A stretch of DNA of 64,000 bases, taken from positions 1,856-65,855 of the forward strand of contig JAUYDX010000088.1 in NCBI GenBank assembly GCA_030691625.1, written 5' to 3'. The stretch comes from Candidatus Omnitrophota bacterium (GTDB lineage Bacteria; Omnitrophota; Gorgyraeia; Gorgyraeales; Gorgyraeaceae). Position numbers and translations under genes: made by a program. Position 1 is the stretch's first letter; the number at the start of each line of letters is the position of its first letter. The notes beneath the pieces are model-generated. The model was given only the letters and a program-made list of their open reading frames with translations. It searched no databases and had not been told where the DNA came from. Positions 715 to 57,457 of this stretch are shown here, in pieces.

Positions 715-1395
715 ATGCAAATGTTTGAAAATAAATCTTTTCAGCTGGCTGTCCTGGTTTCGATCTTTTTGCATTTTTCCGTGTTCCTGATCACGCCTTA
801 TACAGGCGCGTTGCCAAGAAAAGAACGCATCGATCCCATAAAGGTAGCTTATTTTAAGGTAAAGGCCGAGCCTAAAAAGGTTGTGGGAGAGAGGCCGCGG
901 CCCATTTCTCCTCTGGCGCCAGAGGCATTGCCTAAAGTAAAGAAGGATGAGATTTTAAACCCGCCGCAGGCGCAGGCAAAAAAAAAGGAAGAGCCGACCG
1001 TTGAAACCATAACCTCTGACTCCAGGGCCATAATAGGCGCCAAAGGCAAAAAGTTTGAAACAGTTGTCAATGACGAGAAGGATAGCGGCAAGAAAGCCGC
1101 TTATATAGGTTACTACAGATCAGTAAGGGAAAGGATAAGGTATTACGCTGATAGAAATTATATAAAGCAGGGCAGCGCGGCCCAGGGCGAGGTTTTTCTG
1201 TCCTTTGTGGTGACCTCCAGCGGAGAGCTTCTTCATATAATGGTTATTGACGCAAAGTCAGCGGATGACGCGATGTTGAGAAACATAGCTGTGGACAGCG
1301 TGAGAGACGCGAGCCCCTTCCCGGCATTTCCCCAGGGCATGAACCAGTACCAGGTCACCTTCAACGTAATAATCTCCTTCGAACTCAACAAATAA
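715..1395 (+). CDS. TonB family energy transducer (N-terminal TM, Pro/Lys-rich linker, TonB_C domain)
   Basis: N-terminal hydrophobic anchor, PKKVVGERPRPISPLAPEALPKVKK proline-rich spacer, C-terminal TonB-like fold (GEVFLSFVV...NVIISFEL). Confidence 0.6.
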   Translation: MQMFENKSFQLAVLVSIFLHFSVFLITPYTGALPRKERIDPIKVAYFKVKAEPKKVVGERPRPISPLAPEALPKVKKDEILNPPQAQAKKKEEPTVETITSDSRAIIGAKGKKFETVVNDEKDSGKKAAYIGYYRSVRERIRYYADRNYIKQGSAAQGEVFLSFVVTSSGELLHIMVIDAKSADDAMLRNIAVDSVRDASPFPAFPQGMNQYQVTFNVIISFELNK

Positions 1396-3665: not shown

Positions 3666-3712
3666 CAAACAACTTGACACTTCAAACAATGTTACAAGTG
3701 TCAAGTTGTTTG
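3666..3712. repeat. family-1 palindrome copy C
   Basis: inverted repeat, same consensus. Confidence 0.9.
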
Positions 3713-9068: not shown

Positions 9069-9115
9069 TCAAACAACTTGACACTTGAAACAATGTCACA
9101 AGTGTCAAGTTGTTT
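9069..9115. repeat. family-1 palindrome copy E, between IMPDH-like stop and dnaE start
   Basis: inverted repeat. Confidence 0.9.
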
Positions 9116-9125
9116 GGTTGATTAT

Positions 9126-12100
9126 ATGCTTCATAGCGATTTCGTCCACCTGCACGTCCACACGCAATACAGCCTTCTTGACGGCGCCTGCATAATACCT
9201 AATCTCATTGACCTCGCGAGGCGCATGAAGATGCCTGCCTGCGCCATAACAGACCACGGCAACATGTTCGGCGCCATTGAATTCTACCAATCATGCATGA
9301 CGAATGGGATCAAGCCTATAATAGGGTCAGAGGTTTATATCGCCCCCAAAGGCAGGCTTGACAAGACCTTTTCCGCCGGAGAAGAAACAGCCAATCACCT
9401 GATACTGCTTGTCAAAGACGAGGCAGGATATAAAAATCTGATGAAGCTGGTCTCCATCGGTTATCTGGAAGGTTTTTATTATAAACCGAGGATCGATAAA
9501 GAGGTCCTGGCGCAGTATTCAAAAGGATTGATCGCGCTATCCAGCTGTTTAAAAGGCGAGATCCCCAGGTCTATAATGTCAGGGAAGGAAGAAAGGGCAA
9601 AACAGCTGGCAGATGAGTATTGCGCTATCATGGGCAAGGAAAATTTTTATTTTGAACTGCAGGATAACGGGATACCTGAGCAAAGGGAGGTCAGCAGGGA
9701 ACTTATAAGGCTTGGCAAAGAATTGGGCATAGGAGTAGTTGCCACTAACGACGTGCACTATCTTACCAGGGACAGCGCTAAGGCGCACGAGGCGCTTCTA
9801 TGCATACAGACGCAGACCACGCTGGATGACCCTAACCGCATGAAACTGCAGACAGACCAGTTTTATTTCAGGTCTGGCGAAGAAATGAAAGCGCTTTTTA
9901 AGGATACGCCGGACGCCATTTCCAACACAATAAAAATAGCGGAAAGGTGTAACCTGGAACTGGATTTCAAAAAGACATATCTTCCTCATTATGCCGCGCC
10001 TGAAGGCACCACGCGGGAAAAATTTATGAGAGAGCTCTGCGAAAATAATCTGGAGAAAAGATATCCCTTGTCTACCTGTCCAACTTCGCAAGTTGCCCCG
10101 ATGGGCAACTTGCGAAGTTGGACAGGTGGGGATATGAGACAAATAAAGGAAAGGCTGGATTATGAATTAAAGGTCATAAGCAAGGCAGGCTACACAAGTT
10201 ATTTCCTCATAGTGTGGGATTTTATAAGCCACGCGAAATCAAAAGGCATAGCTGTCGGGCCGGGAAGAGGTTCTGCGGCAGGGAGCATAGTGAGCTATCT
10301 CTTAGGCATAACAGACATAGACCCGCTCAGGTACAATCTCCTCTTTGAAAGATTTTTAAACTCTGAGCGCGTGAGCATGCCTGATATTGACATAGATTTC
10401 TGCTACGAAAGAAGGCCGGAGGTTATAGATTATGTCGTGCAGAAATACGGCAAGGACAATGTCGCGCAGATAATAACCTTCGGGACCATGGCAGCCAGGG
10501 CAGTAATAAGGGATGTGGGCAGGGTGATGAACCTTCCTTACGCTGATGTCGACAGGATAGCGAAGCTTGTGCCGATGGAACTGGACGTGACCCTGGAACT
10601 CGCGCTTGAAAAAGAACCGGAGCTCGCGAGATTATACAAAGAAGACCCAAGGGTGCGCGAACTTATAGATACCTCAAAAAAACTGGAAGGCCTTACGCGC
10701 CACGCGTCCACGCACGCGGCAGGGGTGGTCATAAGCGAGGATTCGCTCACCAACCACGTCCCAATATTTAAGACCAGCGATGGGCAAATTTCAACAGGCT
10801 ACGCCATGGGCTCTCTTGAAAAGATAGGGCTTTTTAAAAATGGATTTCCTGGGCTTGAGGACATTGACCGTTATTCAGGAGGCGATAAAGATAATCAACA
10901 GGGTCAATAATGTAGGGGCGGTCAATGACCGCCCCCTACGGGTTGAGGACATACCAATGGACGACCCTAAGACTTACAGGCTTTTGAATAACGCTGAATC
11001 AGAAGGCATATTCCAGCTGGAAAGTTCAGGGATGAGAGACCTTTTGAGGAAATTAAAGGCAGAGAAATTCGAGGACATAATAGCTCTTCTCGCGTTATAC
11101 AGGCCCGGCCCGATAGGAAGCGGCATGCTTGATGATTACATGAAGCGCAAGCACGGCAAGGTGGACGTGAGGTATGACCACCCGCTTCTTGAGGCGAGCC
11201 TGAAAGAGACATACGGCATCATTGTGTACCAGGAGCAGGTAATGACAATAGTCTCCTCGCTCGCTGGCTTTTCGCTGGCGCAGGCAGACCTTTTAAGAAG
11301 GGCTATCGGCAAAAAAACACCGGAGATAATGGAGCAGCAGAAAAAGGCCTTTATCGACGGCGCCGCGAAAAATAAAATAGACAGGCGTATTGCGGAAAAG
11401 ATATTTAACCTGATAGAGCATTTCGCCGGTTACGGCTTCAACAAAAGCCATTCAGCGGCGTACGCCATGATCTCTTACAGGACAGCGTACCTGAAGGCGA
11501 ACTTTCCCGTTGAGTTCATGACAGCCCTTCTCACCAGCGAAAAAGATAACACGGATAAGATAGTGGAATACATAGACGAGGCAGAGCGCATGGGTATAAA
11601 GATACTGCCTCCTGATATAAACGAGAGCTACGCGAATTTTACCATGATAAATAAAAATGAGATAAGATTTGGTTTGAGCGCTGTTAAAAATGTGGGCGAA
11701 GGCGCCATAGAATCCATAATCGAGGCCAGGAAAAAATACGGCCGTTTCTCGTCCCTGTACGAATTCTGCGAAAAGACAGATTCGAGGCTTGTGAATAAAA
11801 AGGTCATGGAGAGCCTTATAAAATGCGGGGCGTTTGACAGCGCGGGCCTTAAAAGATCCCAGCTGATGGCAATGCTGGCGGACACAATGAATGCCGCGGA
11901 TTCCGCGCACAAGGAATCCGCCACAGGCCAGATGACGCTTTTTACCAAGGACAGCCGCGAACCGCAGGCCCCGGATATAAAGGAGTGGCCTGAGAGCCAG
12001 CTTTTGAATTTTGAAAAAGATATGATAGGGTTTTATATAACAGGCCACCCTCTCGCCAAATACGAAAAGATGATCAAGGAATATTCCACAGCAGGCAGCG

Positions 12101-12635: not shown

Positions 12636-12682
12636 CCAAACAACTTGACACTTCAAACAATGTCACAAGTGTCAAGTTGTTG
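12636..12682. repeat. family-1 palindrome copy F, after dnaE
   Basis: inverted repeat. Confidence 0.9.
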
Positions 12683-22267: not shown

Positions 22268-23113
22268 ATGAAAAAACTATCTTTTCAAGAAGTTGTGGAG
22301 AAGCTGAATAAGTTCTGGGCTGATAAGGGGTGTCTGATTGTCGAGCCGCTGGATACAGAGGTGGGCGCAGGCACTTTTCATCCAGCCACTTTTTTTAAAT
22401 CCCTTGGGAAAGACCCGTGGAGGGTGGCGTATGTCCAGCCTTCAAGGCGGCCGTGCGACGGAAGATACGCGGATAATCCTTTAAGGCTTCAGCATTATTA
22501 TCAGTATCAGGTGGTCATAAAGCCGACAGTCCCTGACATAAGAAAAATCTATCTGGACAGCCTCAAATACCTGGGTATAAATTTAAAGGCCCATGAGGTG
22601 AGATTTGTGGAAGACGACTGGGAATCTCCCACGCTGGGAGCGTCAGGACTGGGCTGGGAAGTCTGGCTGGACAGCCTGGAGATCACGCAGTTTACTTATT
22701 TTCAGCAGGTGGCAGGCATAGAGCTGGACATGGTGCCGTGCGAAATCACTTACGGGCTCGAACGCATATGCATGTTTATCCAGGAGAAATTCAATCTGTT
22801 TGACCTGGAGTGGCATAAGGGCGTGACCTACGGAGATATTCACAGGCGCCACGAACTGGAATATTCAAAATATAATTTCGAGGAAGCTGACATAGAGATG
22901 TATTTAAAGATGTTTGAATGGTTCGAGAAAGAGGCGAATAGGCTGGCGGATAAAGGCCTGGCGTATCCCGCGTACAGTTTCGCGCTCAAAGCGTCTCACG
23001 CGTTCAACGTGCTGGACGCGAGAGGCGCGATAAGCCAGAACGAGAGGCCGCGTTATATCGCGAGGGTGCGCGGACTTGCCAAACGCTGCGCCGAGACATA
23101 CCTTCAATCATAA
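22268..23113 (+). CDS. glyQ: glycyl-tRNA synthetase alpha subunit
   Basis: highly conserved GlyQ sequence ([16 protein letters not shown]...); start codon 6 nt after GGTGG provided by family-2 palindrome. Confidence 0.95.
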
Positions 23114-23156
23114 ACAACTTGACACTTGTGACATTGTTATAAGTGTCAAGTTGTTT
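23112..23156. repeat. family-1 palindrome copy H, between glyQ stop and glyS
   Basis: inverted repeat beginning at the glyQ TAA. Confidence 0.9.
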
Positions 23157-29625: not shown

Positions 29626-29670
29626 AAACAACCTTACACTTGTGACATTGTTATAAGTGTCAAGTTGTTT
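29625..29670. repeat. family-1 palindrome copy I, abutting the CCA end of tRNA-Arg
   Basis: inverted repeat starting at the final A of the tRNA CCA. Confidence 0.9.
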
Positions 29671-34021: not shown

Positions 34022-34063
34022 ATGGTGCCAGGCACCGTGCCTGGCACGGTGCCTGGCACCATC
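34021..34063. repeat. family-3 palindrome with duplicated arm
   Basis: AATGGTGCCAGGCACCGTGCCTGGCACGGTGCCTGGCACCAT. Confidence 0.9.
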
Positions 34064-34121: not shown

Positions 34122-34250
34122 TTACGACAAAGGCAAACCATTCGAAAGAATGGGGCGCAAAGTCAACAGGCCTAAAGCCCTGAAGGGCAACGGCGGCTGG
34201 ATTACCGAAATTAAAAACCTATTCTGCCATGAGGCCGGATAGGTTTTTTA
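34122..34250 (+). ncRNA. c-di-GMP-I (GEMM) riboswitch candidate with intrinsic terminator, in leader of RlpA-like gene
   Basis: GGCAAACC-AUUCGAAAGAAUGG-GGCGCAAAG-..GGCCUAAAG..GGAUUACCGAAAU closely matches the Vibrio Vc2 GEMM aptamer as recalled from memory (GGGCAAACCAUUCGAAAGAGUGGGACGCAAAGCC..GGCCUAAAC..GGUUACCGAUGG); followed by AACCUAU..AUAGGUUUUUU terminator 15 nt before the RBS. Confidence 0.6.
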
Positions 34251-34265
34251 TTTGGGAGTCTCAAG

Positions 34266-34649
34266 ATGAAAAAGGCCGCAGTCATATTGATAATTCTAAT
34301 GGCTGTGGTTTTTTCTTTAAATAATGCAAAGGGGGTCGCGACTTCCTCTGCCACCATTATTAAAGGTAAGGCATCCTGGTATTCCCAGAATGACCCCGGA
34401 ATCCTCCTCACTACAGCCAATATGGAGAGATTTGACGATTCCCAGTTTACCTGCGCCATATGGGACTTGCCATTCAACACTATATTAAAGGTAACAAACC
34501 TTGAGAACGGCAAATCTGTCATTGTCCGGGTTAATGACAGGGGCCCGGCAAAGAGGTTAAACCGCGCAATAGACCTCACCAAAACCGCGTTTTCCCAAAT
34601 ATGCGACCCTGAAAAAGGCCTCGCAGATGTTTCTGTGGAAACAATGTAA
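34266..34649 (+). CDS. RlpA-like double-psi beta-barrel (DPBB) lipoprotein
   Basis: signal peptide; GKASWY...ANGE..RVNDRGP motif typical of RlpA/3D DPBB domains. Confidence 0.65.
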   Translation: MKKAAVILIILMAVVFSLNNAKGVATSSATIIKGKASWYSQNDPGILLTTANMERFDDSQFTCAIWDLPFNTILKVTNLENGKSVIVRVNDRGPAKRLNRAIDLTKTAFSQICDPEKGLADVSVETM

Positions 34650-34838
34650 AACTCGCCTATTATACCTAAGTACAATTGATTTCATTTTGACATTCCTCTA
34701 TAGTATAAGCAGGTTTTAGAATGAGGAGAAAGGAGGCAATATGAAAGCGGAGGAAAAGGGGTTCAAAAAATTTTTATTGACAAATCAATTAAGGTAATTT
34801 ATAATACTTATTAACAAACTTTTAAAAGGAGGTGCGTG

Positions 34839-37409
34839 ATGCACAAGAAATTCTTGTTTTTGACTATCACAGCTATTGTATTTTGCTCATTTGTATTGGT
34901 GGGACTGGGATTCTGCTACCAGGTTCCCGGAGAACAGAGTAACGTTAAATACCTTTATACATTCGGAAAAGACGGCCAAAAAACATACGGCGCAATGAAA
35001 ACCGGGCCTCTGGTAATATTCGTCAGAGTTCCCAGTACCTATAATGGCAACATCCAGATAGGTATTTATGATCCTGATACAGGCGGCGCAATAGATGAAA
35101 AAGACGGCCAGTGGGATACAATCACAAAGTTTTCTATTTTAGGCGGAAAGAAAACGTATACTTCACTCCTGGAAGCGGACGAGAGTCATGTGCTTATTGA
35201 TAAAGAAAGCGACACGAATCCTGTGGATCCTTACCATGGAGATCTATTAGCTGAAAAGACATTCGGCAATGATGAGCAGTATGACAAAAAGATTTATAGC
35301 TTTGACCCTATTGACGCTTCAAAGGGCGAAGAAGCAGGCGGCTACAGGTATTTTAAAATAGTGATAGAAGGGCTTTCAGGCAACGATAACAATCTTTTTT
35401 CATTAGATATCTCTCCTGATACGTTAGAGGCCTTTAGCTTCGCGCCTAGGATAAGATTAGCGGAAACACGCGGCGCGAAAATGGCTTTTTATCCAGAAAT
35501 ACCTTCTGACTCAAGTAGAATTTATGAATATAACTATGACTTGGATCCTACAGGCGGAACCATAGACCTCATAAGCGCTTCCAGGGATTTCAGGATAAAA
35601 GGTTCTGCGACAGGCATGTGGGAAAGCACAGAAATTAAAGTCCCCAGCCAGGACGCAGGCAAAAGATGGGTTTATGAAATAACAAAAGACAGGCAGAAAC
35701 AGGGTAATATGGCATTTAGTTTATTGACAGACAAGGGCAGGTCAATACCTATATACTTTACTCCCGGCGCCGAAGGCCCTAAGCTGGTATTTGTTGAAAA
35801 ACCAAAAGAAACGCCTGCGCCAACCGGACAGCCTCTTTCGTGCAATACCTTCACATTTGACGGCTCGAAATCCTATGCGGCTGATAATAGCAAGCTGGCG
35901 TATTTCTGGGATTTCGGCGACGGAACTACAAGCACGGATATGAGAATAATGCATACCTATAAAGATGCGGGCAAATACCTTGTTAAATTGACAGTAAAAG
36001 ACGCTTCAGACGCGGAATGCAACACCGCAGACACACAGCAGATGGTAAAGGTAAACCAGCCGCCATGCGCTATCGCGGACGGCCCTGATCTGTCATGTTT
36101 GAACGAAGAGATCACATTTGACGGTTCGCAGACAACAGACAGCCCGGATGACAAGCTTACTTACAGATGGGATTTCGGGGACGGCCAGACAGCTGACGGT
36201 ATAAAGGTGAAGCATAAATACGCAAGAGGCGGGAATTATCAGGCTACGCTGACGGTAACGGATGATTCCGGTACCATATGCGACACCAGCGTTGATAAAA
36301 TAAAGGTAGGTATTAATACGCCTCCTACGGCAGACGCGGGCAAGGACACATTTATATGCAGTGTGAACCCGAGCCAGCCTCTGGATGTGGCGTTTGACGC
36401 TGCCGGTTCAAAGGATCAGGACGGAGACAAGCTTACTTATACATGGGATTTCGGCGATGGCCAGACAGGCGAAGGAAGGACCGTAAAACACACCTACGCT
36501 AAAGGCGGAGAGTATATAGCGAAGCTTATAGTGAGCGACAATACAGACACAGAATGCGACAAGGCAGTATCTACTAAGACAGTGGTGCTGAACAGAGCCC
36601 CCATAGCGAACGCGGGCAACGATCTTCAGATATGCACGGGCGATACAGCCAGTTTTGACGCGTCCGGTTCAACAGATAACGACGGAGACAGACTTAGCTA
36701 TGCCTGGGATTTTGGGGACGGTGAAAAAGCTGAAGGCAAGACTGTTTCCCATAAATATACAAAAGGCGGGGTTTATCAGGTTAAACTTATCGTGGACGAT
36801 GGCGCAAAAACAGACTGCTCGAGCGCGTCTGATAAACTGCTCGTTAACGTGAACACAGCCCCGAGCGCGATAATCGCTTCCAAGGATACCGCTTCTGTGG
36901 GCCAGACTGTGAATTTTGACAGCGCCAACTCAAATGATCTGGACGGCGACAAGCTCGGCTACACATGGGATTTTGGCGATGGCACCAGCGCGAGCGGAAG
37001 CGCGGCAAAGCACAGCTATTCAAAAGGCGGGCTTTATAAGGTAACGCTCGTTGTAGACGACCAGAAGAGGACAGACTGCTCGTCAGCCATCAATTCCCAG
37101 TACGTGAAGGTCAATACGCCTCCTGCGGCAGTCACGGGCCCGAATCTGATAGCCTGCGTAGGTGACGAAATTGAATTTGACGGGTCTAAGTCTACTGACC
37201 TGGATGGAGATAAACTGACATACAGGTGGGATTTTGGAGACGGGGAAACAGCGGAAGGCTTGAAAGTAAAGCACGCTTATAAAAAGCTTGGAACTTACAA
37301 GGTGAGCCTGATGGTTACAGATGACTCCGGCGTTGAAGGTAATTCATCAACATCCAGTCTTATGGCAACTATACATGATCAGCCTGTTTCGAAAATAGAG
37401 GTCATGTAA
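34839..37409 (+). CDS. secreted protein with N-terminal domain and ~8 tandem PKD domains
   Basis: repeated Y(R/T/A)WDFGDG(Q/T/E).. blocks about 85 aa apart, signal peptide. Confidence 0.8.
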   Translation: MHKKFLFLTITAIVFCSFVLVGLGFCYQVPGEQSNVKYLYTFGKDGQKTYGAMKTGPLVIFVRVPSTYNGNIQIGIYDPDTGGAIDEKDGQWDTITKFSILGGKKTYTSLLEADESHVLIDKESDTNPVDPYHGDLLAEKTFGNDEQYDKKIYSFDPIDASKGEEAGGYRYFKIVIEGLSGNDNNLFSLDISPDTLEAFSFAPRIRLAETRGAKMAFYPEIPSDSSRIYEYNYDLDPTGGTIDLISASRDFRIKGSATGMWESTEIKVPSQDAGKRWVYEITKDRQKQGNMAFSLLTDKGRSIPIYFTPGAEGPKLVFVEKPKETPAPTGQPLSCNTFTFDGSKSYAADNSKLAYFWDFGDGTTSTDMRIMHTYKDAGKYLVKLTVKDASDAECNTADTQQMVKVNQPPCAIADGPDLSCLNEEITFDGSQTTDSPDDKLTYRWDFGDGQTADGIKVKHKYARGGNYQATLTVTDDSGTICDTSVDKIKVGINTPPTADAGKDTFICSVNPSQPLDVAFDAAGSKDQDGDKLTYTWDFGDGQTGEGRTVKHTYAKGGEYIAKLIVSDNTDTECDKAVSTKTVVLNRAPIANAGNDLQICTGDTASFDASGSTDNDGDRLSYAWDFGDGEKAEGKTVSHKYTKGGVYQVKLIVDDGAKTDCSSASDKLLVNVNTAPSAIIASKDTASVGQTVNFDSANSNDLDGDKLGYTWDFGDGTSASGSAAKHSYSKGGLYKVTLVVDDQKRTDCSSAINSQYVKVNTPPAAVTGPNLIACVGDEIEFDGSKSTDLDGDKLTYRWDFGDGETAEGLKVKHAYKKLGTYKVSLMVTDDSGVEGNSSTSSLMATIHDQPVSKIEVM

Positions 37410-40531: not shown

Positions 40532-40578
40532 CAACAACTTGACACTTAAGACAATGTCACAAGTGTCAAGTTGTTTGG
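40532..40578. repeat. family-1 palindrome copy K
   Basis: inverted repeat. Confidence 0.9.
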
Positions 40579-42802: not shown

Positions 42803-43708
42803 ATGGAGAACCCTGATAATAAAAATATGATAGGCCTGGCGCTTGGGTCAGGCGCCGCTTTCGGGCTCGCGCACATAGGCGTATTGCGCGTTCTTGAGAG
42901 GGAAAAGATTCCAGTAGGGGTTGTTTCAGGCGCGAGCATAGGCGCCCTTATCGCGGCAATGTGGTGCATTGGCCTGAGTTCAAATGACATAGAAGCGATT
43001 TCCGCGAAACTGAAAAGAAAGCTCAATATCATGAGGCTCCTGGATTTTACATTTCCGATATCCGGGATACTGGCAGGCAGGCGGCTCAAGAGATTTTTAA
43101 GGGCTATCCTGGGGGACAGGACATTCGAAGACCTGAAGATCCCCGTCAAAATAATAGTTTACGACCTGGCAAGCAGGGAGACAATAGTAGCGGACAAAGG
43201 CAGGATCCTGGACGCTGTATATAAAAGCATAGCTGTTCCGGGTATTTTTCAGCCAATAATGGAAGACGGAAGGATGTACGTGGACGGAGGAATCCTGGAT
43301 CCCGTGCCTGTGGATATACTTTTCAGGAGCGGCGCGAAAAAGGTCATAGCGGTCAATGTCCTGCCCGGGCCGAAGAATATACGCGAAAGAAATGTGGCCC
43401 TAAAAGAGATTGCCAAAGAAGAGGAAAACATGCTTAGGCACGGCTCATTGGGAGAAAAGATGTGCGCCTATATCTCCAGGTTTTTCAGAAAGGTTTTTAC
43501 GCCCAATATATTCGACGTCATAATGACCAGTATGCAGGCAATGGAATACTCTATAGCCGAGGTAAATTGCTGCAGGGCTGACGTGAACCTGCACCCTGTT
43601 TTAAGCGACGCCAGCTCGATAGATTTTCATCTTGTGAAGAGTTTTGTGAAAATAGGCGAGGAAGAGGCCCTGAGGCACATAGACAAGATAAGAGCTCTAA
43701 CAACTTGA
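42803..43708 (+). CDS. patatin-like phospholipase; last 3 codons and stop lie inside a family-1 palindrome
   Basis: GxGxxG oxyanion hole (GSGAAFG), GASIG nucleophile elbow, DGG catalytic Asp motif. Confidence 0.85.
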   Translation: MENPDNKNMIGLALGSGAAFGLAHIGVLRVLEREKIPVGVVSGASIGALIAAMWCIGLSSNDIEAISAKLKRKLNIMRLLDFTFPISGILAGRRLKRFLRAILGDRTFEDLKIPVKIIVYDLASRETIVADKGRILDAVYKSIAVPGIFQPIMEDGRMYVDGGILDPVPVDILFRSGAKKVIAVNVLPGPKNIRERNVALKEIAKEEENMLRHGSLGEKMCAYISRFFRKVFTPNIFDVIMTSMQAMEYSIAEVNCCRADVNLHPVLSDASSIDFHLVKSFVKIGEEEALRHIDKIRALTT

Positions 43709-43743
43709 CACTTGTGACATTGTCACAAGTGTCAAGTTGTTGG
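43698..43743. repeat. family-1 palindrome copy L, perfect palindrome, contains patatin stop codon
   Basis: TAACAACTTGACACTTGTGACATTGTCACAAGTGTCAAGTTGTTGG. Confidence 0.9.
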
Positions 43744-48988: not shown

Positions 48989-49008
48989 AAATCAAAGAGG
49001 AGGTGGAT

Positions 49009-49638
49009 ATGTTTGTTACAGGCGAAATTTATCATGTTTATAGTAAGAGTATAGCTGATTTTAAGATATTCAATAATGATTTTGAATACCAGAGAATTAA
49101 TAAAGCAATGCAATATTATCAAGTTTCTAAACGGCCTGGAAGTTTTTCTAACTTTTTGGAATACGGGAAACAGCTTTCAGCGGGTAATACCAATAATAAA
49201 CTGGTGCAAATTATTTCTTATTGTCCGATGCCGACTCATTTGCATTTTACCTTAAAGCAATTAATAGAAAAAGGGATATCAACATTTATGAGCAATGTCC
49301 TCAATAGCTATACCCGTTATTTTAATATCAAGCATAACCGTAAAGGTCCGCTATGGGAAGGGCGGTTCAAGAAAGTATTGGTGAAAAGCGATGAACAGCT
49401 AATTCATCTGACTCGCTATATCCATTTAAATCCTGTTACAGCAGGTTTGGTTAATAATCCGATAGATTGGCCATGGTCTTCTTATCATGAGTTTATTAAT
49501 AAAGATTTAACAGAAGACAGCATTTGTGAATACAAAAATATATTAGACATAAAACCTGATAGTTATAAAGCATTCACAGAAGATAGAGCTTCTTATCAAA
49601 GAGAATTGGCAAAAATAAAGCATATACTGATCGATTAG
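49009..49638 (+). CDS. REP-associated tyrosine transposase (RAYT; IS200/IS605 TnpA-like HUH enzyme)
   Basis: HUH motif HLHFTL, catalytic Tyr region RYIHLNPV, ~200 aa; flanked on both sides by inverted family-2 palindromes. Confidence 0.8.
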   Translation: MFVTGEIYHVYSKSIADFKIFNNDFEYQRINKAMQYYQVSKRPGSFSNFLEYGKQLSAGNTNNKLVQIISYCPMPTHLHFTLKQLIEKGISTFMSNVLNSYTRYFNIKHNRKGPLWEGRFKKVLVKSDEQLIHLTRYIHLNPVTAGLVNNPIDWPWSSYHEFINKDLTEDSICEYKNILDIKPDSYKAFTEDRASYQRELAKIKHILID

Positions 49639-49680: not shown

Positions 49681-51411
49681 ATCAGGGTGTGGTATAATAG
49701 ACGCATGGCAGTTAAAAATATATTTTTAATTATCATTATAATTATCGCGGCAGCCGCGCCTTATATAAACTCCATGCACAATCCTTTCATCTGGGACGAG
49801 GAGGAGATTATAGTAAAAAATCCCGTGATAAAAGATTGGAGCTACCTGCCGCATGTTTTTAAGACAAACATTTTCGGGACAGCAATAACCCCGTCCGGTT
49901 ACTACAGGCCCATGTATACGCTGTCATTCATGGCAGATTACAATATCTGGGGCCTTAATACCTTCGGATACCACCTCTTTAATATCCTATTCCATGTTTT
50001 AAACGCTATTTTGCTGTATTTACTTCTCATGAAGCTTGGGCTGGACAGGAAAATCGCATGCTTTAGCAGTGTATTATTCGCTGTGTATCCGATAAACTGC
50101 GAAGCTGTTACGCTTATAGCCGCAAGAGTGGAGCTCATAGCGGGTTTTCTGCTTTTATCGTGCATGATATGTTTTATCAATGGCGTAAAAGGCCGGGGGC
50201 TTAATTTTCTATTGTCCATTATTTTCTTTGCGCTGGCCATGTTGACAAAAGAAAGCGTTATGGTATTCCCGTTTATACTACTGGCTTACACCCTGATATT
50301 CGTAGAGAAAAAGCCCGGGTCAAAGGCTATTTTACCTTTAATGGTTTTGATATTAATGGCCGCGTTTTACGGTATTGCCAGGTTCCTGCTTCTGGGCCAC
50401 TCGCCGGTCACAACCTTATCCCTTATAAACAGCGCCAGTTTTATTGAAAAGGTTTTTACGTTGCCGGGGATATTATTTACATATGTGTCGCTTATATTGT
50501 TTCCTGTCAGGCTGATAAGCGAATACGATTTTGTGCTGCGAAGTTTCTGGGATCCGCGCGTCTGGCTGGCAGCGTTTTTATTAATAGCCATGTTTTCAGC
50601 CGCGTATCTGCGGCTTAAGCCAAAAAAATATCCGCTATTTTTCATATCCTGGTTTTTAATAAGCCTGGCGCCTTACTTTAATATAATAATCCCCCTGCAT
50701 GCCACTCTTATGGAGCATTGGGCGTATTTTTCCACAATGGGTTTCGCTGCCCTGTCAGGGATAGCTGTTTTTAATATGGCTGAATCCGCGTCTTCCAGGT
50801 GGCTGAAAGGGCTTCTGATCCTGATGGCCGCGTCCCTTATCGGATTTTATATCGCGAAGATAACAGAGCGCAACATGGAATGGAGCGATCCTTTCAGGTT
50901 ATACCAGGCAGATGTTAAAAAAGAGCCGAATAGTTTTTTACTGCATTGCAATCTGGGCGTGGAGTATTTCAGGAGAGGGATGACGGAAGAGGCTGAAAAA
51001 GAATTCCTGGAATGCAATAATGTAAGCCCCGGCGGTAAATATGACACAGCCTGCAATAACCTGGGAGTGATATACGCGAGAAAAGGCAGGACAGAAGAGG
51101 CAATAGCTTTATACAAGGAGAGCATAGACATCAATAACTATCCCCTGGCTTATGAAAATTTAGGCGGGCTTTATAATGCCATGGGTAAACATAGAGACGC
51201 TGTATTAATTCTTGAAAAAGGCGCTGAGCTGTACCCATTAAACATTAATATCCTGTACCAGTTAGGGATCGCTTATTACATGAACAAGGAATTTGGCCCG
51301 GCTAAACAGATGTTTCTGAGGGTGGAGGGGATCCAGAAAAATTATTCAGACACAGCCAAATTCCTCAATCTCCTAAACAACTTGACACTTCAAACATTGT
51401 CACAAGTGTAA
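49675..51411 (+). CDS. polytopic membrane protein with C-terminal TPR repeats, paralog of 46174-47778; C-terminus and stop inside a family-1 palindrome
   Basis: same architecture and alignable N-terminus (..WDEEEII / FQFDDVKRIVG..) as the paralog. Confidence 0.6.
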   Translation: MVIRVWYNRRMAVKNIFLIIIIIIAAAAPYINSMHNPFIWDEEEIIVKNPVIKDWSYLPHVFKTNIFGTAITPSGYYRPMYTLSFMADYNIWGLNTFGYHLFNILFHVLNAILLYLLLMKLGLDRKIACFSSVLFAVYPINCEAVTLIAARVELIAGFLLLSCMICFINGVKGRGLNFLLSIIFFALAMLTKESVMVFPFILLAYTLIFVEKKPGSKAILPLMVLILMAAFYGIARFLLLGHSPVTTLSLINSASFIEKVFTLPGILFTYVSLILFPVRLISEYDFVLRSFWDPRVWLAAFLLIAMFSAAYLRLKPKKYPLFFISWFLISLAPYFNIIIPLHATLMEHWAYFSTMGFAALSGIAVFNMAESASSRWLKGLLILMAASLIGFYIAKITERNMEWSDPFRLYQADVKKEPNSFLLHCNLGVEYFRRGMTEEAEKEFLECNNVSPGGKYDTACNNLGVIYARKGRTEEAIALYKESIDINNYPLAYENLGGLYNAMGKHRDAVLILEKGAELYPLNINILYQLGIAYYMNKEFGPAKQMFLRVEGIQKNYSDTAKFLNLLNNLTLQTLSQV

Positions 51412-51420
51412 AGTTGTTAG
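51373..51420. repeat. family-1 palindrome copy N, supplies C-terminus and stop of TPR-membrane gene
   Basis: inverted repeat; host ORF ends ..NLTLQTLSQV* inside it. Confidence 0.9.
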
Positions 51421-51463
51421 GATGGCTTGACCGGAGATGGATTATGCGATATAATAAAAACCA

Positions 51464-52909
51464 ATGAGCGCTGGGAAAAAGAAGGTATTATTAGCTGAGC
51501 ATGAGACAGGCATTGCTGAAATAATCCAGTATCTCCTTAAGGCGTGGGATTACGAAACGATTATTATTTCAAAGGGCTCGGCAGTGCTGGAGGCAGTGAG
51601 GCGGGAACAGCCGGATATTATAATAATAGACTGGGGCCTGCCTGACATGGACGGCCTCAAGGTTTCCAGGGTACTCAAGGAAGATTTTCTCACCGCGCAC
51701 ATACCCGTAATAGTCCTCATAGACAAAAAACAGATAAGAAAAAAGATGCTCGAGATAGAGCAGGGCGTGGACGATTATATCGCCAACCCGCCTGACCCTA
51801 TAGACCTGGAGGTCAGGATGGAGCTTGCCCTGCGCAGGACCAGCCACCAGCTTTACGCGAATGCCCTCACAAAACTCCCGGGAAATAAACAGATAGAAAA
51901 GGCCATACATGCCAGGATGGATGCGAAAGAATTGTTTTCAGTGGCGTATTATGATATAGATAATTTTAAATCATTCAATGACAAATACGGCTACATGAAA
52001 GGCGACAGCGTGATAAGGCACACGGCTTATATTATCTCCACAACGGTCAAGAGATACGGTAATCCCGGCGATTTCGTGGGGCACATAGGAGGGGACGATT
52101 TCGTGGTGGTCACTACGCCTGACAGGGACAGGCTGGTCGCATCAGAGTCTATACTGGCCTTTACCAGGGCAGTGCATTTTCATTATTCAAAAGAGGACAG
52201 GGACAGGACTTATATAGTGGCAAAAGACAGGCGGGGCAACGTGGTGAATACGCCTCTGATGAGCATCTCAATAGCCATAGCGAACAATAAAAATTTCCCT
52301 ATAAAAAATATGGTGGAGCTGATGGAGATTATCACAGAGATAAAACATTACCTGAAGACCCTGCCCGGGAGCAATTTTCTTGTGAATAGGCGCCAGACTG
52401 AAAAGAGGTTATTCATAGAAGAACCCTGCGCCGCGCCGGGACAGGCTAACAAAGAAGATAAATTCAGGCATAAGCCGCTCGGCCAGATACTGCTGGAGTC
52501 GCAGGTGATTACGCCGGAACAGCTTGAAACCGCGCTAAACAGGCATTGGTCCACCGGCCAGAAAATAGGACAAAGCATAATGAACCTTGGCATGGCCAGC
52601 TCAGGTGATATTGCCAGGGCACTGGAAACGCAGTTCAATGTCCCGCACTTTGATATCCGGGACATGAGCGAAAACGGAGAATTAAAAGAGATAATGTCCA
52701 AGGTGTCTTTTGAGATAATGAAACATTACGGGGTTGTGCCTGTGAGAAAGGATAAAAATACGCTGCTCCTGGCAATGCTCGACCCTAAAAATATGGAGGC
52801 AATGGCTAAGATAAAAAGCCTCACTGGGTGCGTCATAGCGCCTTTATTTGTCCTGGAGAGCGAATTCAGCGAGATATTTGACAGGGTGGCGGTTAAATCA
52901 GGGCTATAA
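51464..52909 (+). CDS. response-regulator receiver + GGDEF diguanylate cyclase (GGDDF) + C-terminal MshEN/T2SSE_N c-di-GMP-binding domain
   Basis: REC with conserved Asp; GGDDF active-site variant with RxxD-like I-site region; C-terminal LGQILLESQVITPEQLETAL...LLLAMLDP pattern typical of the GspE-N/MshEN fold. Confidence 0.8.
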   Translation: MSAGKKKVLLAEHETGIAEIIQYLLKAWDYETIIISKGSAVLEAVRREQPDIIIIDWGLPDMDGLKVSRVLKEDFLTAHIPVIVLIDKKQIRKKMLEIEQGVDDYIANPPDPIDLEVRMELALRRTSHQLYANALTKLPGNKQIEKAIHARMDAKELFSVAYYDIDNFKSFNDKYGYMKGDSVIRHTAYIISTTVKRYGNPGDFVGHIGGDDFVVVTTPDRDRLVASESILAFTRAVHFHYSKEDRDRTYIVAKDRRGNVVNTPLMSISIAIANNKNFPIKNMVELMEIITEIKHYLKTLPGSNFLVNRRQTEKRLFIEEPCAAPGQANKEDKFRHKPLGQILLESQVITPEQLETALNRHWSTGQKIGQSIMNLGMASSGDIARALETQFNVPHFDIRDMSENGELKEIMSKVSFEIMKHYGVVPVRKDKNTLLLAMLDPKNMEAMAKIKSLTGCVIAPLFVLESEFSEIFDRVAVKSGL

Positions 52910-52911
52910 AA

Positions 52912-53090
52912 AAGAAAAAAGCCGATAAAGGCTTTTAGCTTCGGCTTTTCATCGCTCGGCAACCCGGCCGCCATATTATTACTGACTGCCTCACTGACCA
53001 TTTGCGTTAGCTCAGGTCACGGCTTGTCAGAATAACTTAGGCCCGTAGGCTTTGCGCCCCCTGATTTCTCAGGGTTTGCCCTTATCGGCT
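52912..53090 (-). ncRNA. c-di-GMP-I (GEMM) riboswitch-like RNA with own promoter and terminator, convergent with/antisense-oriented to the GGDEF gene
   Basis: minus-strand RNA AGCCGAUAAGGGCAAACC-CUGAGAAAUCAGG-GGGCGCAAAGCC-UACGGGCCUAAG...GGCGGCCGGGUUGCCGAGCGAUG matches the GEMM consensus; ends in a hairpin plus U6. Confidence 0.55.
52917..52950. terminator. bidirectional intrinsic terminator (ends GGDEF gene on + and GEMM RNA on -)
   Basis: AAGCCGA..TCGGCTT hairpin flanked by A-run on one side and T-run on the other. Confidence 0.6.
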
Positions 53091-53096
53091 ATAATA

Positions 53097-53125
53097 AGTA
53101 TACCATATAAATCCAGGGTTTTCAA
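53097..53125 (-). promoter_or_regulatory. sigma-70-like promoter on minus strand (TTGAAA-17-TATACT) driving the GEMM RNA
   Basis: reverse complement of 53120-53125 is TTGAAA, 17 nt spacer, TATACT at 53102-53097, TSS about 53090. Confidence 0.6.
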
Positions 53126-53137
53126 GGGCGCTGGTGG

Positions 53138-53183
53138 CAACAACTTGACACTTGTAACAATGTCACAAGTGTCAAGTTGTTGG
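53138..53183. repeat. family-1 palindrome copy O
   Basis: inverted repeat. Confidence 0.9.
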
Positions 53184-53196
53184 AGGGAGGTGAGGA

Positions 53197-54210
53197 TTGA
53201 AGAGATACAGTCTGGCAGTTTTGTTTGGCTTTGCGCTTGTATTGATGTCTTATGAATGCGCGTTTTGCAAGCCAATACCTATACGCAACCAGATGCCTTT
53301 GTATTTATTTTATCTGCAGATGGAGCCTGATAAAGCAGGCGTAACAGAGAAGGATAAATTTGATATAGACGCGGATTATACAGTTTCAAACGTAACCGTA
53401 AGCTGTTTCACCCCTGACACGTCCATGTACAATATAAACATTGACGCTGAGGTTTCCAGGGTGACGCTTGATCTAAGATACGGCGTTTTTGAGAATTTCG
53501 AGGCAGGCCTGGAGGCGCCTTATCTGATCCTGTCGCGGGGTTACTTAGATAGTTTTGTGGAAGATTTTGAGGACGCGATAGGCGCCAGGACGCCGCGCTC
53601 CAGGATACGCCAGGGCACAAATAATTACAATTACTCTTTTATCTACAATGGCCAGGATCTGATAAATAAGAAAAGCGCCTCGGACGGCCTGGGCGATATG
53701 GCGCTGAAGGCCAAATACAGGATTATCGAGGAGGAAGAAGGTTTTTTCGCGCCTAATGTCTCTATAAGGAGCGCGCTGAAGCTTCCCACGGGCAGGAAAA
53801 GGGACCTCCTGGGCAGCGGAGAATTTGACTGGGGCCTGGGCGTGATAGCTGACAAGTCATTTTCCAAGAGGATGAGTTTTTACTGCGGCCTGAATGTCGT
53901 GTTTATACAAAAGCCGGATTTTTTCAGCGCGTTGAATATAAAAAAGGAGATAGCCTCCGGTTTTATTGGCATTGAATATTTTTTCACAGAAAGGTTTTCC
54001 CTGGTGGCGCAGGTCTCAGGCAATACCACGCCTTACCCTGACAGCGGGACAAATGCCCTGGACGAGTCCGCGGGCGATGTGAGTTTCGGTATTAATTATA
54101 TCTGGAAAGAAAAGCGCAATGTTTCGTGGCGTTTCGCGTTTACGGAAAATATAAATTCCGCGTCCAGTCCGGACGTGAGTTTTAATACAGGGTGGGATGT
54201 GGGGTTCTGA
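53197..54210 (+). CDS. outer-membrane beta-barrel protein, hypothetical
   Basis: signal peptide, beta-strand periodicity, C-terminal GWDVGF. Confidence 0.5.
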   Translation: MKRYSLAVLFGFALVLMSYECAFCKPIPIRNQMPLYLFYLQMEPDKAGVTEKDKFDIDADYTVSNVTVSCFTPDTSMYNINIDAEVSRVTLDLRYGVFENFEAGLEAPYLILSRGYLDSFVEDFEDAIGARTPRSRIRQGTNNYNYSFIYNGQDLINKKSASDGLGDMALKAKYRIIEEEEGFFAPNVSIRSALKLPTGRKRDLLGSGEFDWGLGVIADKSFSKRMSFYCGLNVVFIQKPDFFSALNIKKEIASGFIGIEYFFTERFSLVAQVSGNTTPYPDSGTNALDESAGDVSFGINYIWKEKRNVSWRFAFTENINSASSPDVSFNTGWDVGF

Positions 54211-57409: not shown

Positions 57410-57457
57410 CCCCAACAACTTTACACTTGTGACATTGTTTGAAGTGTCAAGTTGTTT
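57410..57457. repeat. family-1 palindrome copy R
   Basis: inverted repeat. Confidence 0.9.

What the first reader, a model, noticed from the sequence alone, without database searches (positions are those of the whole stretch)
52912..53125. Stand-alone c-di-GMP-I (GEMM) riboswitch-like RNA aimed antisense at a diguanylate-cyclase/c-di-GMP-receptor gene
A near-consensus sigma-70 promoter on the minus strand (TTGAAA-17-TATACT, 53125-53097) would start an RNA at about 53090. The RNA begins AGCCGAUAAGGGCAAACC-CUGAGAAAUCAGG-GGGCGCAAAGCC-UACGGGCCUAAG and ends with ..GGCGGCCGGGUUGCCGAGCGAUG, a hairpin and U6 at about 52912.

The aptamer matches the GEMM / c-di-GMP-I core as remembered from Vibrio Vc2: GGGCAAACC, a GAAA-tetraloop hairpin, GACGCAAAGCC, GGCCUAA, and GGUUACCGAUGG-like 3' element. 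It is also clearly homologous to a second copy at 34122-34250.

No minus-strand gene lies downstream. The only thing past the terminator is the antisense strand of the REC-GGDEF(GGDDF)-MshEN gene (51464-52909), which both makes and binds c-di-GMP. Ligand-controlled read-through would therefore produce antisense RNA across a c-di-GMP signalling gene, giving a compact feedback loop. I have not seen this arrangement described. Alternatively the RNA acts in trans as a c-di-GMP-sensing sRNA or sponge.
Basis: partly seen in the sequence, partly recalled or inferred. Interest (0 to 1): 0.85.

Follow-up and report, generated by a model that had tools for sequence, protein, structure and literature searches.

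The report
Stand-alone c-di-GMP riboswitch small RNA
A canonical c-di-GMP-sensing riboswitch in an Omnitrophota genome forms a roughly 180-nt RNA gene of its own, tail-to-tail with a c-di-GMP signalling gene; it belongs to a conserved family that switches between the ligand-binding fold and a helix pairing its two ends, so it probably acts as a sensor RNA, not as a switch for antisense read-through.

Summary
Minus strand 53125-52908 carries a conserved extended -10 promoter, a canonical c-di-GMP-I aptamer, a hairpin and a U-run. No minus-strand gene follows. The unit lies between REC-GGDEF(GGDDF)-MshEN (+) and DUF3187 (+).

The arrangement recurs in about 40 distinct Omnitrophota sequences, with GGDEF protein identity down to 63%. 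In 16 relatives the GGDEF reading frame runs into the RNA's terminator.

The new point is a 13-bp helix between the first 13 nt of the RNA (AGCCGAUAAGGGC) and GCCUUUAUCGGCU just before the U-run. It excludes the ligand-binding fold, is in the minimum-energy fold of 41 of 41 members, and shows compensatory changes in divergent members.

Those divergent members sit co-oriented between unrelated genes and are followed by separate hairpin-plus-U-run terminators that take no part in the switch. Both folds place a helix against the U-run, so ligand-controlled read-through is unlikely though not excluded.

Best reading: a stand-alone, ligand-gated two-state sRNA. The aptamer class is known, and stand-alone and antisense-driving c-di-GMP-I riboswitches have precedents (Bdellovibrio merRNA; C. 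difficile Cdi1_4/RCd11). I rate it a new variant of a known kind.

The parts
53097..53125 (-). Promoter of the riboswitch RNA: -35 TTGAAA (53125-53120), 17-nt spacer, TG (53105-53104), -10 TATACT (53102-53097). Predicted start is A53090.
   Evidence: Promoter scan, 10/12 match with TG. Conserved in relatives: TTGAAA 21/27, TG 25/27, 6-7 nt from the -10 to the first nt of AGCCG.
53078..53090 (-). Segment 1: the first 13 nt of the RNA, AGCCGAUAAGGGC. It contains the 5' strand of P1, the ligand-contacting G (Vc2 G20 equivalent) and the base of P2. It pairs either within the aptamer or with segment 4.
   Evidence: Rfam alignment; minimum-energy fold; 97% paired with segment 4 across 41 sequences, with compensatory changes at 2 pairs.
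52954..53089 (-). c-di-GMP-I aptamer. It has P1 (short, 3-4 bp), P2 with a GAAA tetraloop, and P3 with the CCUAAG/UAUGG tetraloop receptor. The G20, A47 and C92 equivalents are canonical.
   Evidence: Rfam hit at 59.9 bits, E 1.3e-11; orthologues 51-68 bits on RF01051; contact nucleotides invariant in 41 sequences; P3 covariation.
52973..53036 (-). Lineage-specific 64-nt extension of P3: CUGAC-AAGCC-G-UGACC...GGUCA-GUGA-GGCA-GUCAG in the window (UAACC...GGUUA in most relatives), with a variable apical loop. Absent in some relatives.
   Evidence: Alignments A1 and A2. L015, L028 and L066 have a short P3, and L005/L006 a shorter insert. Helices 5-7 have compensatory changes at 15 of 19 pairs.
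52941..52953 (-). Segment 3: linker and 5' arm of the local terminator hairpin (GAUGAAAAGCCGA). It is nearly invariant in the main lineage and replaced by other local hairpins in divergent members.
   Evidence: helix 10: 91% paired, no compensatory change; divergent members.
52920..52932 (-). Segment 4: GCCUUUAUCGGCU. Its 3' half is the 3' arm of the local hairpin. The whole segment pairs with segment 1 to form the 13-bp closing helix.
   Evidence: Duplex energy -21.7 kcal/mol against -7.9 to -12.7 for the local hairpin; the closing helix is in the minimum-energy fold of 41/41 members; covariation.
52908..52919 (-). U-run UUUUUCUUUUUU, the predicted 3' end of the RNA. Its last bases overlap the TAA stop codon (52907-52909) of the convergent gene.
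   Evidence: Sequence; terminator scan; stop-codon mapping.
51464..52909 (+). Convergent gene: REC + GGDEF-like (GGDDF) + MshEN c-di-GMP-binding domain. It shares the hairpin region as a possible bidirectional terminator.
   Evidence: Pfam; PDB sequence search hits PleD and the PilF/PilB N-domains; GGDDF invariant; the plus-strand hairpin is followed by UUUUCAUCG.
53197..54210 (+). DUF3187 gene, divergent from the riboswitch promoter. It follows the GGDEF gene directly in the two relatives that lack the RNA.
   Evidence: Pfam; synteny; L013 and L023 junctions.

Best explanation
The element is a self-contained gene for a 175-185-nt c-di-GMP-sensing small RNA. It is not the leader of an mRNA.

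A strong, conserved extended -10 promoter starts the RNA at A53090. The RNA folds into a canonical c-di-GMP-I aptamer and ends at a U-run next to the stop codon of the convergent REC-GGDEF-MshEN gene.

The RNA has two mutually exclusive folds:
- With c-di-GMP captured during transcription, the first 13 nt stay in the aptamer (P1, the G20-equivalent contact, the base of P2). The 3' segment UCGGCUUUU then pairs with the nearby AAAAGCCGA to form a local hairpin.
- Without ligand, the first 13 nt pair with GCCUUUAUCGGCU. This 13-bp helix joins the two ends of the RNA and dismantles the binding site.

Both helices end directly at the U-run. I therefore infer that transcription stops there whether or not ligand is bound. 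Under this reading c-di-GMP sets the shape of a discrete RNA, and perhaps its stability or what it exposes. It does not set the amount of read-through.

What is shown: the aptamer identity, the promoter, the conservation, the two alternative helices and their covariation.

What is inferred: ligand-independent termination, and the downstream effect. That effect could be buffering of c-di-GMP, or ligand-gated pairing with the complementary 3' end of the GGDEF mRNA or with another partner.
For: - Aptamer: Rfam hits in the window and in 23 of 29 orthologous loci. The G20, A47 and C92 equivalents, the GAAA tetraloop and the 11-nt receptor are invariant.
- Independent unit: the promoter is conserved and starts the RNA exactly at the first nt of the closing helix. 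No downstream minus-strand gene exists.
- Closing helix: it is in the minimum-energy fold of the window RNA (-73.6 kcal/mol, against -57.7 for the aptamer plus local hairpin) and of 41/41 members. It is 97% paired, with A-U to U-A and C-G to U-A compensatory changes in L046 and L050. The duplex is -21.7 kcal/mol against -7.9 to -12.7 for the local hairpin.
- Divergent members L046, L050 and L056 keep the promoter, aptamer and closing helix. They use different local hairpins and sit co-oriented between a PG-binding lipoprotein gene and a GH1 or patatin gene. Separate hairpin-plus-U-run terminators follow them, and L046 has no U-run after the helix. In that lineage read-through into an antisense target cannot be the output.
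- The RNA sequence is held constant whether it is non-coding (window) or encodes the KKADKG tail of the GGDEF protein in 16 relatives.
- Stand-alone c-di-GMP riboswitch sRNAs have precedents: merRNA (PMC3627812) and the Vc2-containing sRNAs (bioRxiv 10.1101/617340).
Against: - There are no expression data, so RNA ends, abundance and read-through are all unmeasured.
- Ligand-independent termination is inferred from geometry. A long-range helix may form too slowly to terminate, in which case the closing helix would act as an antiterminator.
- Covariation for the closing helix rests on 3 cells in 2 divergent sequences. Most of the helix is invariant because segment 1 is also constrained by the aptamer.
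- A pure c-di-GMP sponge would not need an anti-aptamer helix.
- No trans target is identified. The segments exposed in each state are not conserved between lineages.
- The conserved position against the GGDEF gene could still reflect a functional link that this explanation underweights.
Confidence: 0.5

Rival explanations
1. One reading: a ligand-controlled terminator. One fold terminates and the other lets RNA polymerase run on, making antisense RNA across the REC-GGDEF-MshEN gene and closing a feedback loop on c-di-GMP signalling. The sign is uncertain. If the long-range helix cannot terminate, low c-di-GMP gives read-through. If the weak local hairpin (5 G/C-rich pairs, 15-nt loop) terminates poorly, high c-di-GMP gives read-through.
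For: - It has the classical layout of aptamer, alternative pairing and hairpin plus U-run.
- The convergent arrangement is conserved in every main-lineage locus, down to 63% protein identity.
- The local hairpin is much weaker than the closing helix, so the two states need not terminate equally.
- In L026 the 5' half of the RNA and part of the GGDEF gene are both missing.
Against: - The alternative pairing sequesters the 3' arm, not the 5' arm, of the terminator. It places a 13-bp, -21.7 kcal/mol helix directly against the U-run. That is the geometry of a terminator, not of an antiterminator.
- Divergent members keep the switch but have no antisense target and carry separate terminators that take no part in the switch.
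- Some main-lineage loci have an extra hairpin between the RNA and the GGDEF stop codon (L005, L006, L018).
Confidence: 0.25
2. A pure c-di-GMP sponge or store of the merRNA type. The RNA is made in large amounts and simply soaks up c-di-GMP. The closing helix only protects the RNA ends, and its competition with the aptamer has no regulatory meaning.
For: - The promoter is near-consensus with a TG extension and is conserved.
- The RNA is discrete and terminated, with a high-affinity-type aptamer (tetraloop plus receptor).
- Precedent: merRNA (PMC3627812).
Against: - The closing helix destroys the binding site and is favoured by about 16 kcal/mol in secondary-structure energy. This would cripple a sponge.
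- Each lineage keeps a local hairpin that competes for segment 4, although the sequence of that hairpin differs. That argues that switching is selected.
- Abundance is unknown.
Confidence: 0.12
3. The unit acts on the plus-strand operon it interrupts. GGDEF and DUF3187 are adjacent and operon-like in relatives that lack the RNA. Here the unit would serve one or more of three roles. It could be a bidirectional terminator or roadblock. It could be the source of a divergent promoter for DUF3187. Or it could be an antisense RNA to the GGDEF-DUF3187 intergenic leader.
For: - In L013 and L023 the GGDEF stop is followed at once by the RBS and start of DUF3187.
- In many loci the DUF3187 RBS abuts the -35 of the riboswitch promoter. 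The DUF3187 leader must therefore overlap the riboswitch unit.
- A plus-strand promoter-like site, TTCTCA-18-TATAAT at 53066-53095, lies over the riboswitch start.
- The plus-strand hairpin is followed by only UUUUCAUCG.
Against: - None of these roles needs a ligand-binding aptamer or the two-state switch.
- The plus-strand -10 is not well conserved: it reads TATAAC, TAATAA or TAATTA in several loci (sequences).
- Divergent members are in an unrelated context.
Confidence: 0.1
4. An ordinary cis-acting riboswitch for an overlooked minus-strand coding sequence: the 91-aa ORF 52726-53001, or a 5-codon ORF (AUG AAA AGC CGA AGC UAA) in the linker.
For: Both ORFs exist in the window.
Against: - The 91-aa ORF starts inside the variable P3 insertion, which is absent in L015, L028 and L066. 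It runs through the terminator into the antisense of a conserved gene.
- The linker AUG is AUA in L005, L006, L024 and L054. The stop is not conserved and there is no Shine-Dalgarno sequence.
Confidence: 0.03

Closest known systems
c-di-GMP-I (GEMM-I) riboswitch, Rfam RF01051 (e.g. Vibrio cholerae Vc2, C. difficile Cd1)
   Same: The aptamer is the same: a three-helix junction, a GAAA tetraloop docking on a CCUAAG/UAUGG receptor, and canonical G20/A47/C92 equivalents. It scores above the family threshold.
   Different: It is not in the 5' leader of a gene. It has its own promoter and terminator and no downstream ORF. It carries a 64-nt P3 extension. Its expression platform is a 13-bp helix between the two ends of the RNA that competes with the aptamer.
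Bdellovibrio bacteriovorus merRNA (PMC3627812)
   Same: It is a c-di-GMP-I riboswitch embedded in a discrete non-coding RNA with no conserved downstream ORF, proposed to act other than in cis.
   Different: merRNA is 445 nt, and its defining feature is measured massive expression, which suggested a sponge role. Here abundance is unknown, the RNA is about 180 nt, and it has a conserved anti-aptamer closing helix. I did not test sequence similarity outside the aptamer.
C. difficile Cdi1_4/Cdi1_5 riboswitches upstream of RCd11/RCd12 antisense antitoxin RNAs (PMC7699646; table in PMC11477304)
   Same: A c-di-GMP-I riboswitch whose downstream transcript is antisense to a protein-coding gene. The read-through there is regulated by c-di-GMP, as shown by Northern blot.
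   Different: There the antisense RNA is a defined antitoxin with its own second promoter, and the target is a toxin gene. Here the target would be a c-di-GMP signalling gene, no read-through transcript is known, and the structure suggests termination in both states.
Vc2-containing sRNAs of V. cholerae stabilised by c-di-GMP (bioRxiv 10.1101/617340)
   Same: c-di-GMP binding to a GEMM-I aptamer changes the fate of a small RNA rather than termination or translation of a downstream gene.
   Different: In Vibrio the aptamer is at the 3' end of sRNAs made from the tfoY leader. Here the aptamer is at the 5' end of a dedicated transcription unit.
Other riboswitch-controlled non-coding RNAs: the B12 riboswitch with AspocR antisense RNA and Rli55/EutX, and the SAM riboswitch SreA (recalled from my own knowledge, not checked here)
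   Same: A metabolite-sensing aptamer controls, or is part of, a regulatory RNA instead of an mRNA leader.
   Different: Different ligand classes. In those cases ligand-controlled termination decides between short and long forms, which is doubtful here.

Membership tests
c-di-GMP-I riboswitch aptamer (RF01051) | Covariance-model score above the curated gathering score | tested here: met
   The window scores 59.9 bits on sister model RF03167 of the same clan, and lower-scoring same-clan matches above threshold were suppressed by clan competition. Near-identical orthologues score 51-68 bits on RF01051, gathering score 35.
c-di-GMP-I riboswitch aptamer (RF01051) | Ligand-contacting nucleotides G20, A47 and C92 (Vc2 numbering) | tested here: met
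   G11, A38 and C132 of the RNA align to these positions and are invariant in 41 sequences. The Vc2 numbering is from my own knowledge.
c-di-GMP-I riboswitch aptamer (RF01051) | P2 GNRA tetraloop and its receptor in P3 | tested here: met
   A GAAA loop, with CCUAAG ... UAUGG flanking the P3 extension.
c-di-GMP-I riboswitch aptamer (RF01051) | Helices supported by covariation | tested here: met
   P3 and its extension have 17 pairs with changes on both sides. P2 shows only G-C to G-U changes. P1 is 3-4 bp and nearly invariant.
c-di-GMP-I riboswitch aptamer (RF01051) | Binds c-di-GMP | not testable with these tools
   Needs in-line probing or ITC.
Cis-regulatory riboswitch (aptamer plus expression platform in the 5' leader of the regulated gene) | A downstream gene on the same strand | tested here: not met
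   There is no credible minus-strand ORF downstream in the window. The same holds in about 40 related loci.
c-di-GMP-I-GGC variant (RF03167) | G instead of A at the A47 position (model consensus CGCGAAG) | tested here: not met
   The window has CGCAAAG, and the variant-defining column is a mismatch in the alignment. That this column defines the variant is from my recollection of the variant paper.
Riboswitch-controlled antisense RNA (Cdi1_4/RCd11 type) | Ligand changes the ratio of terminated to read-through antisense transcript | tested here: inconclusive
   Only structure could be examined. Both alternative helices abut the U-run, and relatives carry separate terminators that take no part in the switch. 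There are no transcript data.
merRNA-like stand-alone riboswitch sRNA / c-di-GMP sponge | Discrete non-coding transcript with no conserved downstream ORF | tested here: met
   Own promoter, hairpin plus U-run, and no ORF.
merRNA-like stand-alone riboswitch sRNA / c-di-GMP sponge | Very high cellular abundance | not testable with these tools
   Needs RNA-seq or metatranscriptomes of Omnitrophota.

The most novel reading that the evidence does not exclude
The RNA is a c-di-GMP-gated cis-antisense regulator that needs no read-through. Its last 40 or so nt (linker, hairpin and U-run) are by construction complementary to the 3' end of the REC-GGDEF-MshEN mRNA. In 16 relatives this includes the last six codons and the stop codon, which lies in the hairpin loop.

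Ligand state decides whether this region is presented, either as a 15-nt kissing loop or as a free linker, or is buried in the 5'-3' closing helix. In this way c-di-GMP would set the stability or translation termination of a c-di-GMP signalling protein's mRNA.

This would be a riboswitch whose output is the pairing competence of an sRNA.
Probability: 0.2. Interest if true: 0.8.

Novelty: new variant of a known kind. Interest (0 to 1): 0.6.

Why it matters
Almost all known riboswitches are leaders that control the gene behind them. Only a few are parts of free-standing regulatory RNAs, and for c-di-GMP just one candidate sponge (merRNA) and one antisense case (C. difficile) are on record.

This family offers about 40 natural sequence variants of a stand-alone c-di-GMP-I RNA with a clearly defined two-state architecture. 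They come from Omnitrophota, an uncultivated phylum of very small, possibly host-dependent cells.

If the ligand sets RNA shape rather than read-through, that would add a new output mode for second-messenger riboswitches. The family would also serve as a compact natural model for co-transcriptional ligand capture.

The tail-to-tail overlap with a REC-GGDEF-MshEN gene, where the RNA's terminator even encodes the protein's C-terminal tail, makes a direct RNA-level feedback on c-di-GMP signalling testable.

Tried and rejected
1. GGC-variant specificity. The best Rfam model for the window was RF03167, but the variant-defining position is the canonical A and the orthologues hit RF01051. I rejected an altered-ligand reading.
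2. Missed minus-strand ORFs. Neither the 91-aa ORF nor the 5-codon linker ORF is conserved.
3. The 18-bp perfect inverted repeat next to the promoter (53138-53182). I first took it for an operator or part of the system. It is a dispersed REP-like palindrome with 24 arm matches in the window, and it is absent at this position in relatives.
4. Viral-contig scan with GCCGATAARGGCAAACC. It gave 13 hits, all chance matches inside coding sequence with no aptamer.
5. Exact-protein lookup of the GGDEF protein. It is not on record.
6. A classical antiterminator between the aptamer's 3' half and the terminator's 5' arm. I found no convincing complementarity by inspection. The only strong alternative is the 5'-3' closing helix.
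7. A conserved plus-strand promoter for DUF3187 inside the riboswitch DNA. It is present in the window, but its -10 is poorly conserved across loci, so I left it as a lead.
8. A kink-turn or loop-E assignment for the conserved asymmetric internal loop in the P3 extension. I could not fit a consensus by eye and did not pursue it.
9. My 'forbid closing helix' constraint over-restricted the fold. Those delta-delta-G values should not be used. The comparison is the valid one.
Full report
**What is there**

Reading the minus strand from 53125 to 52905 gives, in order:
- a promoter, TTGAAA-17-TATACT with TG at -15/-14;
- an RNA that would start at A53090;
- a c-di-GMP-I aptamer;
- a hairpin;
- the run UUUUUUCUUUUUU, ending at the TAA stop codon (52907-52909) of the convergent gene.

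The Rfam scan at curated thresholds finds three things in the 64-kb window: a tRNA, a c-di-GMP-I aptamer at 34122-34209 (+, 81.8 bits), and a c-di-GMP-I clan aptamer at 52954-53089 (-, 59.9 bits, E 1.3e-11).

The best model for the minus-strand copy was the 'GGC' variant RF03167. The position that distinguishes that model (CGCGAAG) reads CGCAAAG here, so the site is canonical. Near-identical orthologues are assigned to RF01051 at 51-68 bits.

The equivalents of Vc2 G20, A47 and C92, the GAAA tetraloop and the CCUAAG/UAUGG receptor are all present. They are invariant in 41 related sequences.

**Surroundings**

Almost every gene in the window is on the plus strand. The element fills the gap between 51464-52909 (+; REC, GGDEF and MshEN domains) and 53197-54210 (+; DUF3187), which is followed by an AsmA-like gene.

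The only minus-strand ORFs downstream are antisense ORFs inside the GGDEF gene. One 91-aa ORF starts in the variable P3 insertion. None is credible.

The other riboswitch copy, at 34122, is conventional. It has a terminator and is followed by a DPBB/RlpA-like gene and a large PKD-repeat protein.

**Relatives**

A genome scan with the GGDEF protein returned 33 orthologous loci, all from Candidatus Omnitrophota MAGs, at 43-87% identity.
- In 23 of the 29 loci above 63% identity, Rfam finds the aptamer at the same place and in the same antisense orientation. The order is GGDEF(+), riboswitch(-), DUF3187(+).
- L029 has it at a contig end.
- L011 ends before it.
- L026 keeps only the 3' half, and its GGDEF gene is interrupted as well.
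- L013 and L023 lack it. There the GGDEF stop codon is followed at once by the ribosome-binding site and start of DUF3187, like an operon.

A metagenome scan anchored on the P2/junction sequence added 32 loci. Most have the same arrangement.

The promoter is conserved: TTGAAA in 21 of 27 distinct upstream sequences, TG in 25 of 27, and 6-7 nt from the -10 to the first nucleotide of AGCCG.

The RNA is far better conserved than the neighbouring proteins. In 16 loci the GGDEF reading frame continues through the U-run and the 3' arm of the hairpin, ending ...KKADKG-x-stop with the TAG in the hairpin loop. In the window the same DNA is non-coding. The constraint is therefore on the RNA.

**The key structural finding**

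The minimum-energy fold of the full RNA is not 'aptamer plus terminator'. It pairs the first 13 nt (AGCCGAUAAGGGC) with GCCUUUAUCGGCU immediately before the U-run (-74 kcal/mol, z = -5.1 against shuffles).

This closing helix contains the P1 5' strand, the G20 equivalent and the base of P2, so it excludes ligand binding. Its energetics are:

| Structure | Energy (kcal/mol) | Source |
|---|---|---|
| Closing duplex, segment 1 with segment 4 | -21.7 | |
| Local hairpin, AAAAGCCGA with UCGGCUUUU | -7.9 to -12.7 | |
| Whole-RNA fold with closing helix | -73.6 | |
| Whole-RNA fold, aptamer plus local hairpin | -57.7 | |

The whole-RNA figures are secondary-structure energies only, before tertiary and ligand contributions.

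The helix is in the minimum-energy fold of all 41 distinct family members. Across them it is 97% paired. Two pairs show compensatory changes: A1-U to U-A in L046, and C13-G to U-A in L046 and L050. This support is real but thin, because segment 1 is also frozen by the aptamer.

The aptamer's P3 and its extension covary strongly, whereas the local hairpin shows no compensatory change.

**Why I doubt ligand-controlled read-through**

First, an antiterminator normally captures the 5' arm of the terminator so that no helix forms next to the U-run. Here the alternative pairing captures the 3' arm and itself ends at the U-run. It is the stronger of the two helices. Geometrically both states are hairpin-plus-U-run. 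This is an inference, not a measurement.

Second, three divergent members (L046 = L040, L050, L056) keep the promoter, aptamer and closing helix, but each replaces the local hairpin with a different one. Each replacement competes for a different part of segment 4:
- L050: GAUAAAGG with CCUUUAUC;
- L056: GGCGCU with AGCGCC;
- L046: UAAGGGUUUUGG with CCAAAAAUCUUUA.

These members lie co-oriented between a peptidoglycan-binding lipoprotein gene and a GH1 glycosidase or a cNMP-binding/patatin gene, and there is no antisense target. A separate strong terminator, AAUCCCAAC...GUUGGGAUUUUUU, follows them. It takes no part in the switch. L046 has no U-run after the closing helix at all.

In that lineage the switch cannot be about read-through. 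What is conserved is the three-way competition of segment 1 with the aptamer, segment 1 with segment 4, and segment 3 with segment 4.

**Most likely mechanism**

I conclude that the element is a stand-alone gene for a c-di-GMP-sensing sRNA with two stable folds, chosen co-transcriptionally by whether ligand is captured before segment 4 emerges.

What the two folds do differently is not established. The options, in my order of preference:
1. Ligand-gated presentation of the 3' region. This region is necessarily complementary to the 3' end of the GGDEF mRNA, including the stop codon in most relatives.
2. Ligand-dependent stability of the sRNA, as reported for the Vc2-containing sRNAs (bioRxiv 10.1101/617340).
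3. Buffering of c-di-GMP as proposed for merRNA (PMC3627812). An anti-aptamer helix fits a pure sponge poorly.

The long-range helix might be too slow to terminate, or the weak local hairpin might leak.

A further rival is that the unit mainly insulates or re-promotes the GGDEF-DUF3187 operon it interrupts. This rests on the L013/L023 comparison and on the plus-strand promoter-like site 53066-53095. It would not explain the aptamer or the switch.

**The neighbouring protein**

The GGDEF domain has GGDDF in all 30 orthologues examined. Its best structural relatives by sequence are PleD and the N-domains of PilF/PilB. Cyclase activity is therefore unproven, while c-di-GMP binding by the MshEN domain is plausible. 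'Makes and binds c-di-GMP' should be read as 'may make, probably binds'.

**Comparison with what is known**

The aptamer is a full member of c-di-GMP-I. The unit as a whole is not a cis-regulatory riboswitch, because no regulated gene follows it.

Stand-alone and antisense-driving c-di-GMP-I riboswitches are on record:
- Bdellovibrio merRNA (PMC3627812);
- an orphan copy between CD2517 and CD2517.1, listed with the RCd11/RCd12 cases in PMC11477304.

No paper in the searchable library combines Omnitrophota with this riboswitch.

Four things appear to be new:
- a conserved family of such RNAs;
- the 5'-3' closing helix as the alternative state;
- the conserved tail-to-tail fusion with a c-di-GMP signalling gene;
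- the protein's C-terminal tail being dictated by the RNA's terminator.

I rate it a new variant of a known kind, with interest 0.6.

Noticed in passing
window 53138-53182, and 11 other sites (e.g. 1417-1434, 3667-3711, 9071-9115, 12638-12682, 23112-23156, 29626-29670, 40532-40576, 43698-43742, 51375-51419, 57413-57457): A dispersed REP-like palindrome: 18-bp arms CAACAACTTGACACTTGT separated by 9 nt. There are 24 arm matches against 0.04 expected. Most copies sit in short gaps between genes, though a few overlap gene ends. A Y1/IS200-like (RAYT-like) transposase gene lies at 49003-49638. The copy next to the riboswitch promoter is absent from relatives.
   Followed up: partly
window 34122-34260, then 34266-34649 and 34836-37409: The second c-di-GMP-I riboswitch (81.8 bits) is conventional. 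Its aptamer and terminator (AAAAACCUAUUC...GGAUAGGUUUUUU) sit ahead of a 127-aa DPBB/RlpA-like gene and an 857-aa protein with six PKD domains.
   Followed up: partly
L007, L008, L009, L010, L012, L014-L017, L019, L021, L022, L024, L026, L027, L029 (3' end of the GGDEF gene): In 16 relatives the GGDEF protein ends ...KKADKG-x. This tail is encoded by the antisense of the riboswitch RNA's U-run and hairpin arm (AAAAAAGCCGATAAAGGC), with the stop codon in the hairpin loop. A protein tail is thus dictated by an RNA structure on the other strand.
   Followed up: yes
L026 5225-5470: A remnant copy. The promoter and the 5' half of the riboswitch RNA are deleted, while the 3' half and hairpin remain. 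The adjacent GGDEF gene also lacks residues 58-123. This could be joint decay or a MAG assembly error.
   Followed up: partly
window 53066-53095 (+): A plus-strand promoter-like site, TTCTCA-18-TATAAT, whose -10 lies over the riboswitch RNA start. With the minus-strand promoter it would form a back-to-back pair that could drive DUF3187. The -10 is only loosely conserved in relatives.
   Followed up: partly
window 52973-53036 (-): The P3 extension has a conserved asymmetric internal loop (G opposite GUGA/GUUA) between covarying helices, and a hypervariable apical loop. It is absent in L015, L028 and L066 and much longer in L039. Its role is unknown.
   Followed up: partly
L050 about 1131-1149 (-) and L056 about 9741-9759 (+): A shared motif, CCATAAATTGTCTGTTCAT, lies just upstream of the -10 region of the genes that follow the divergent riboswitch RNAs (a GH1 glycosidase and a cNMP-binding/patatin protein). 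It may be a shared promoter or operator.
   Followed up: no
window 34026-34060: A G+C-rich repeat, GGTGCCAGGCACCGTGCCTGGCACGGTGCCTGGCACC, lies directly after the gene ending at 34021 and upstream of riboswitch copy 1. It looks like a nested palindromic terminator.
   Followed up: no
window 51427-51455 (+): A near-consensus promoter, TTGACC-17-TATAAT (11/12), sits directly upstream of the REC-GGDEF-MshEN gene, just after a REP-like palindrome. The gene probably has its own promoter.
   Followed up: no
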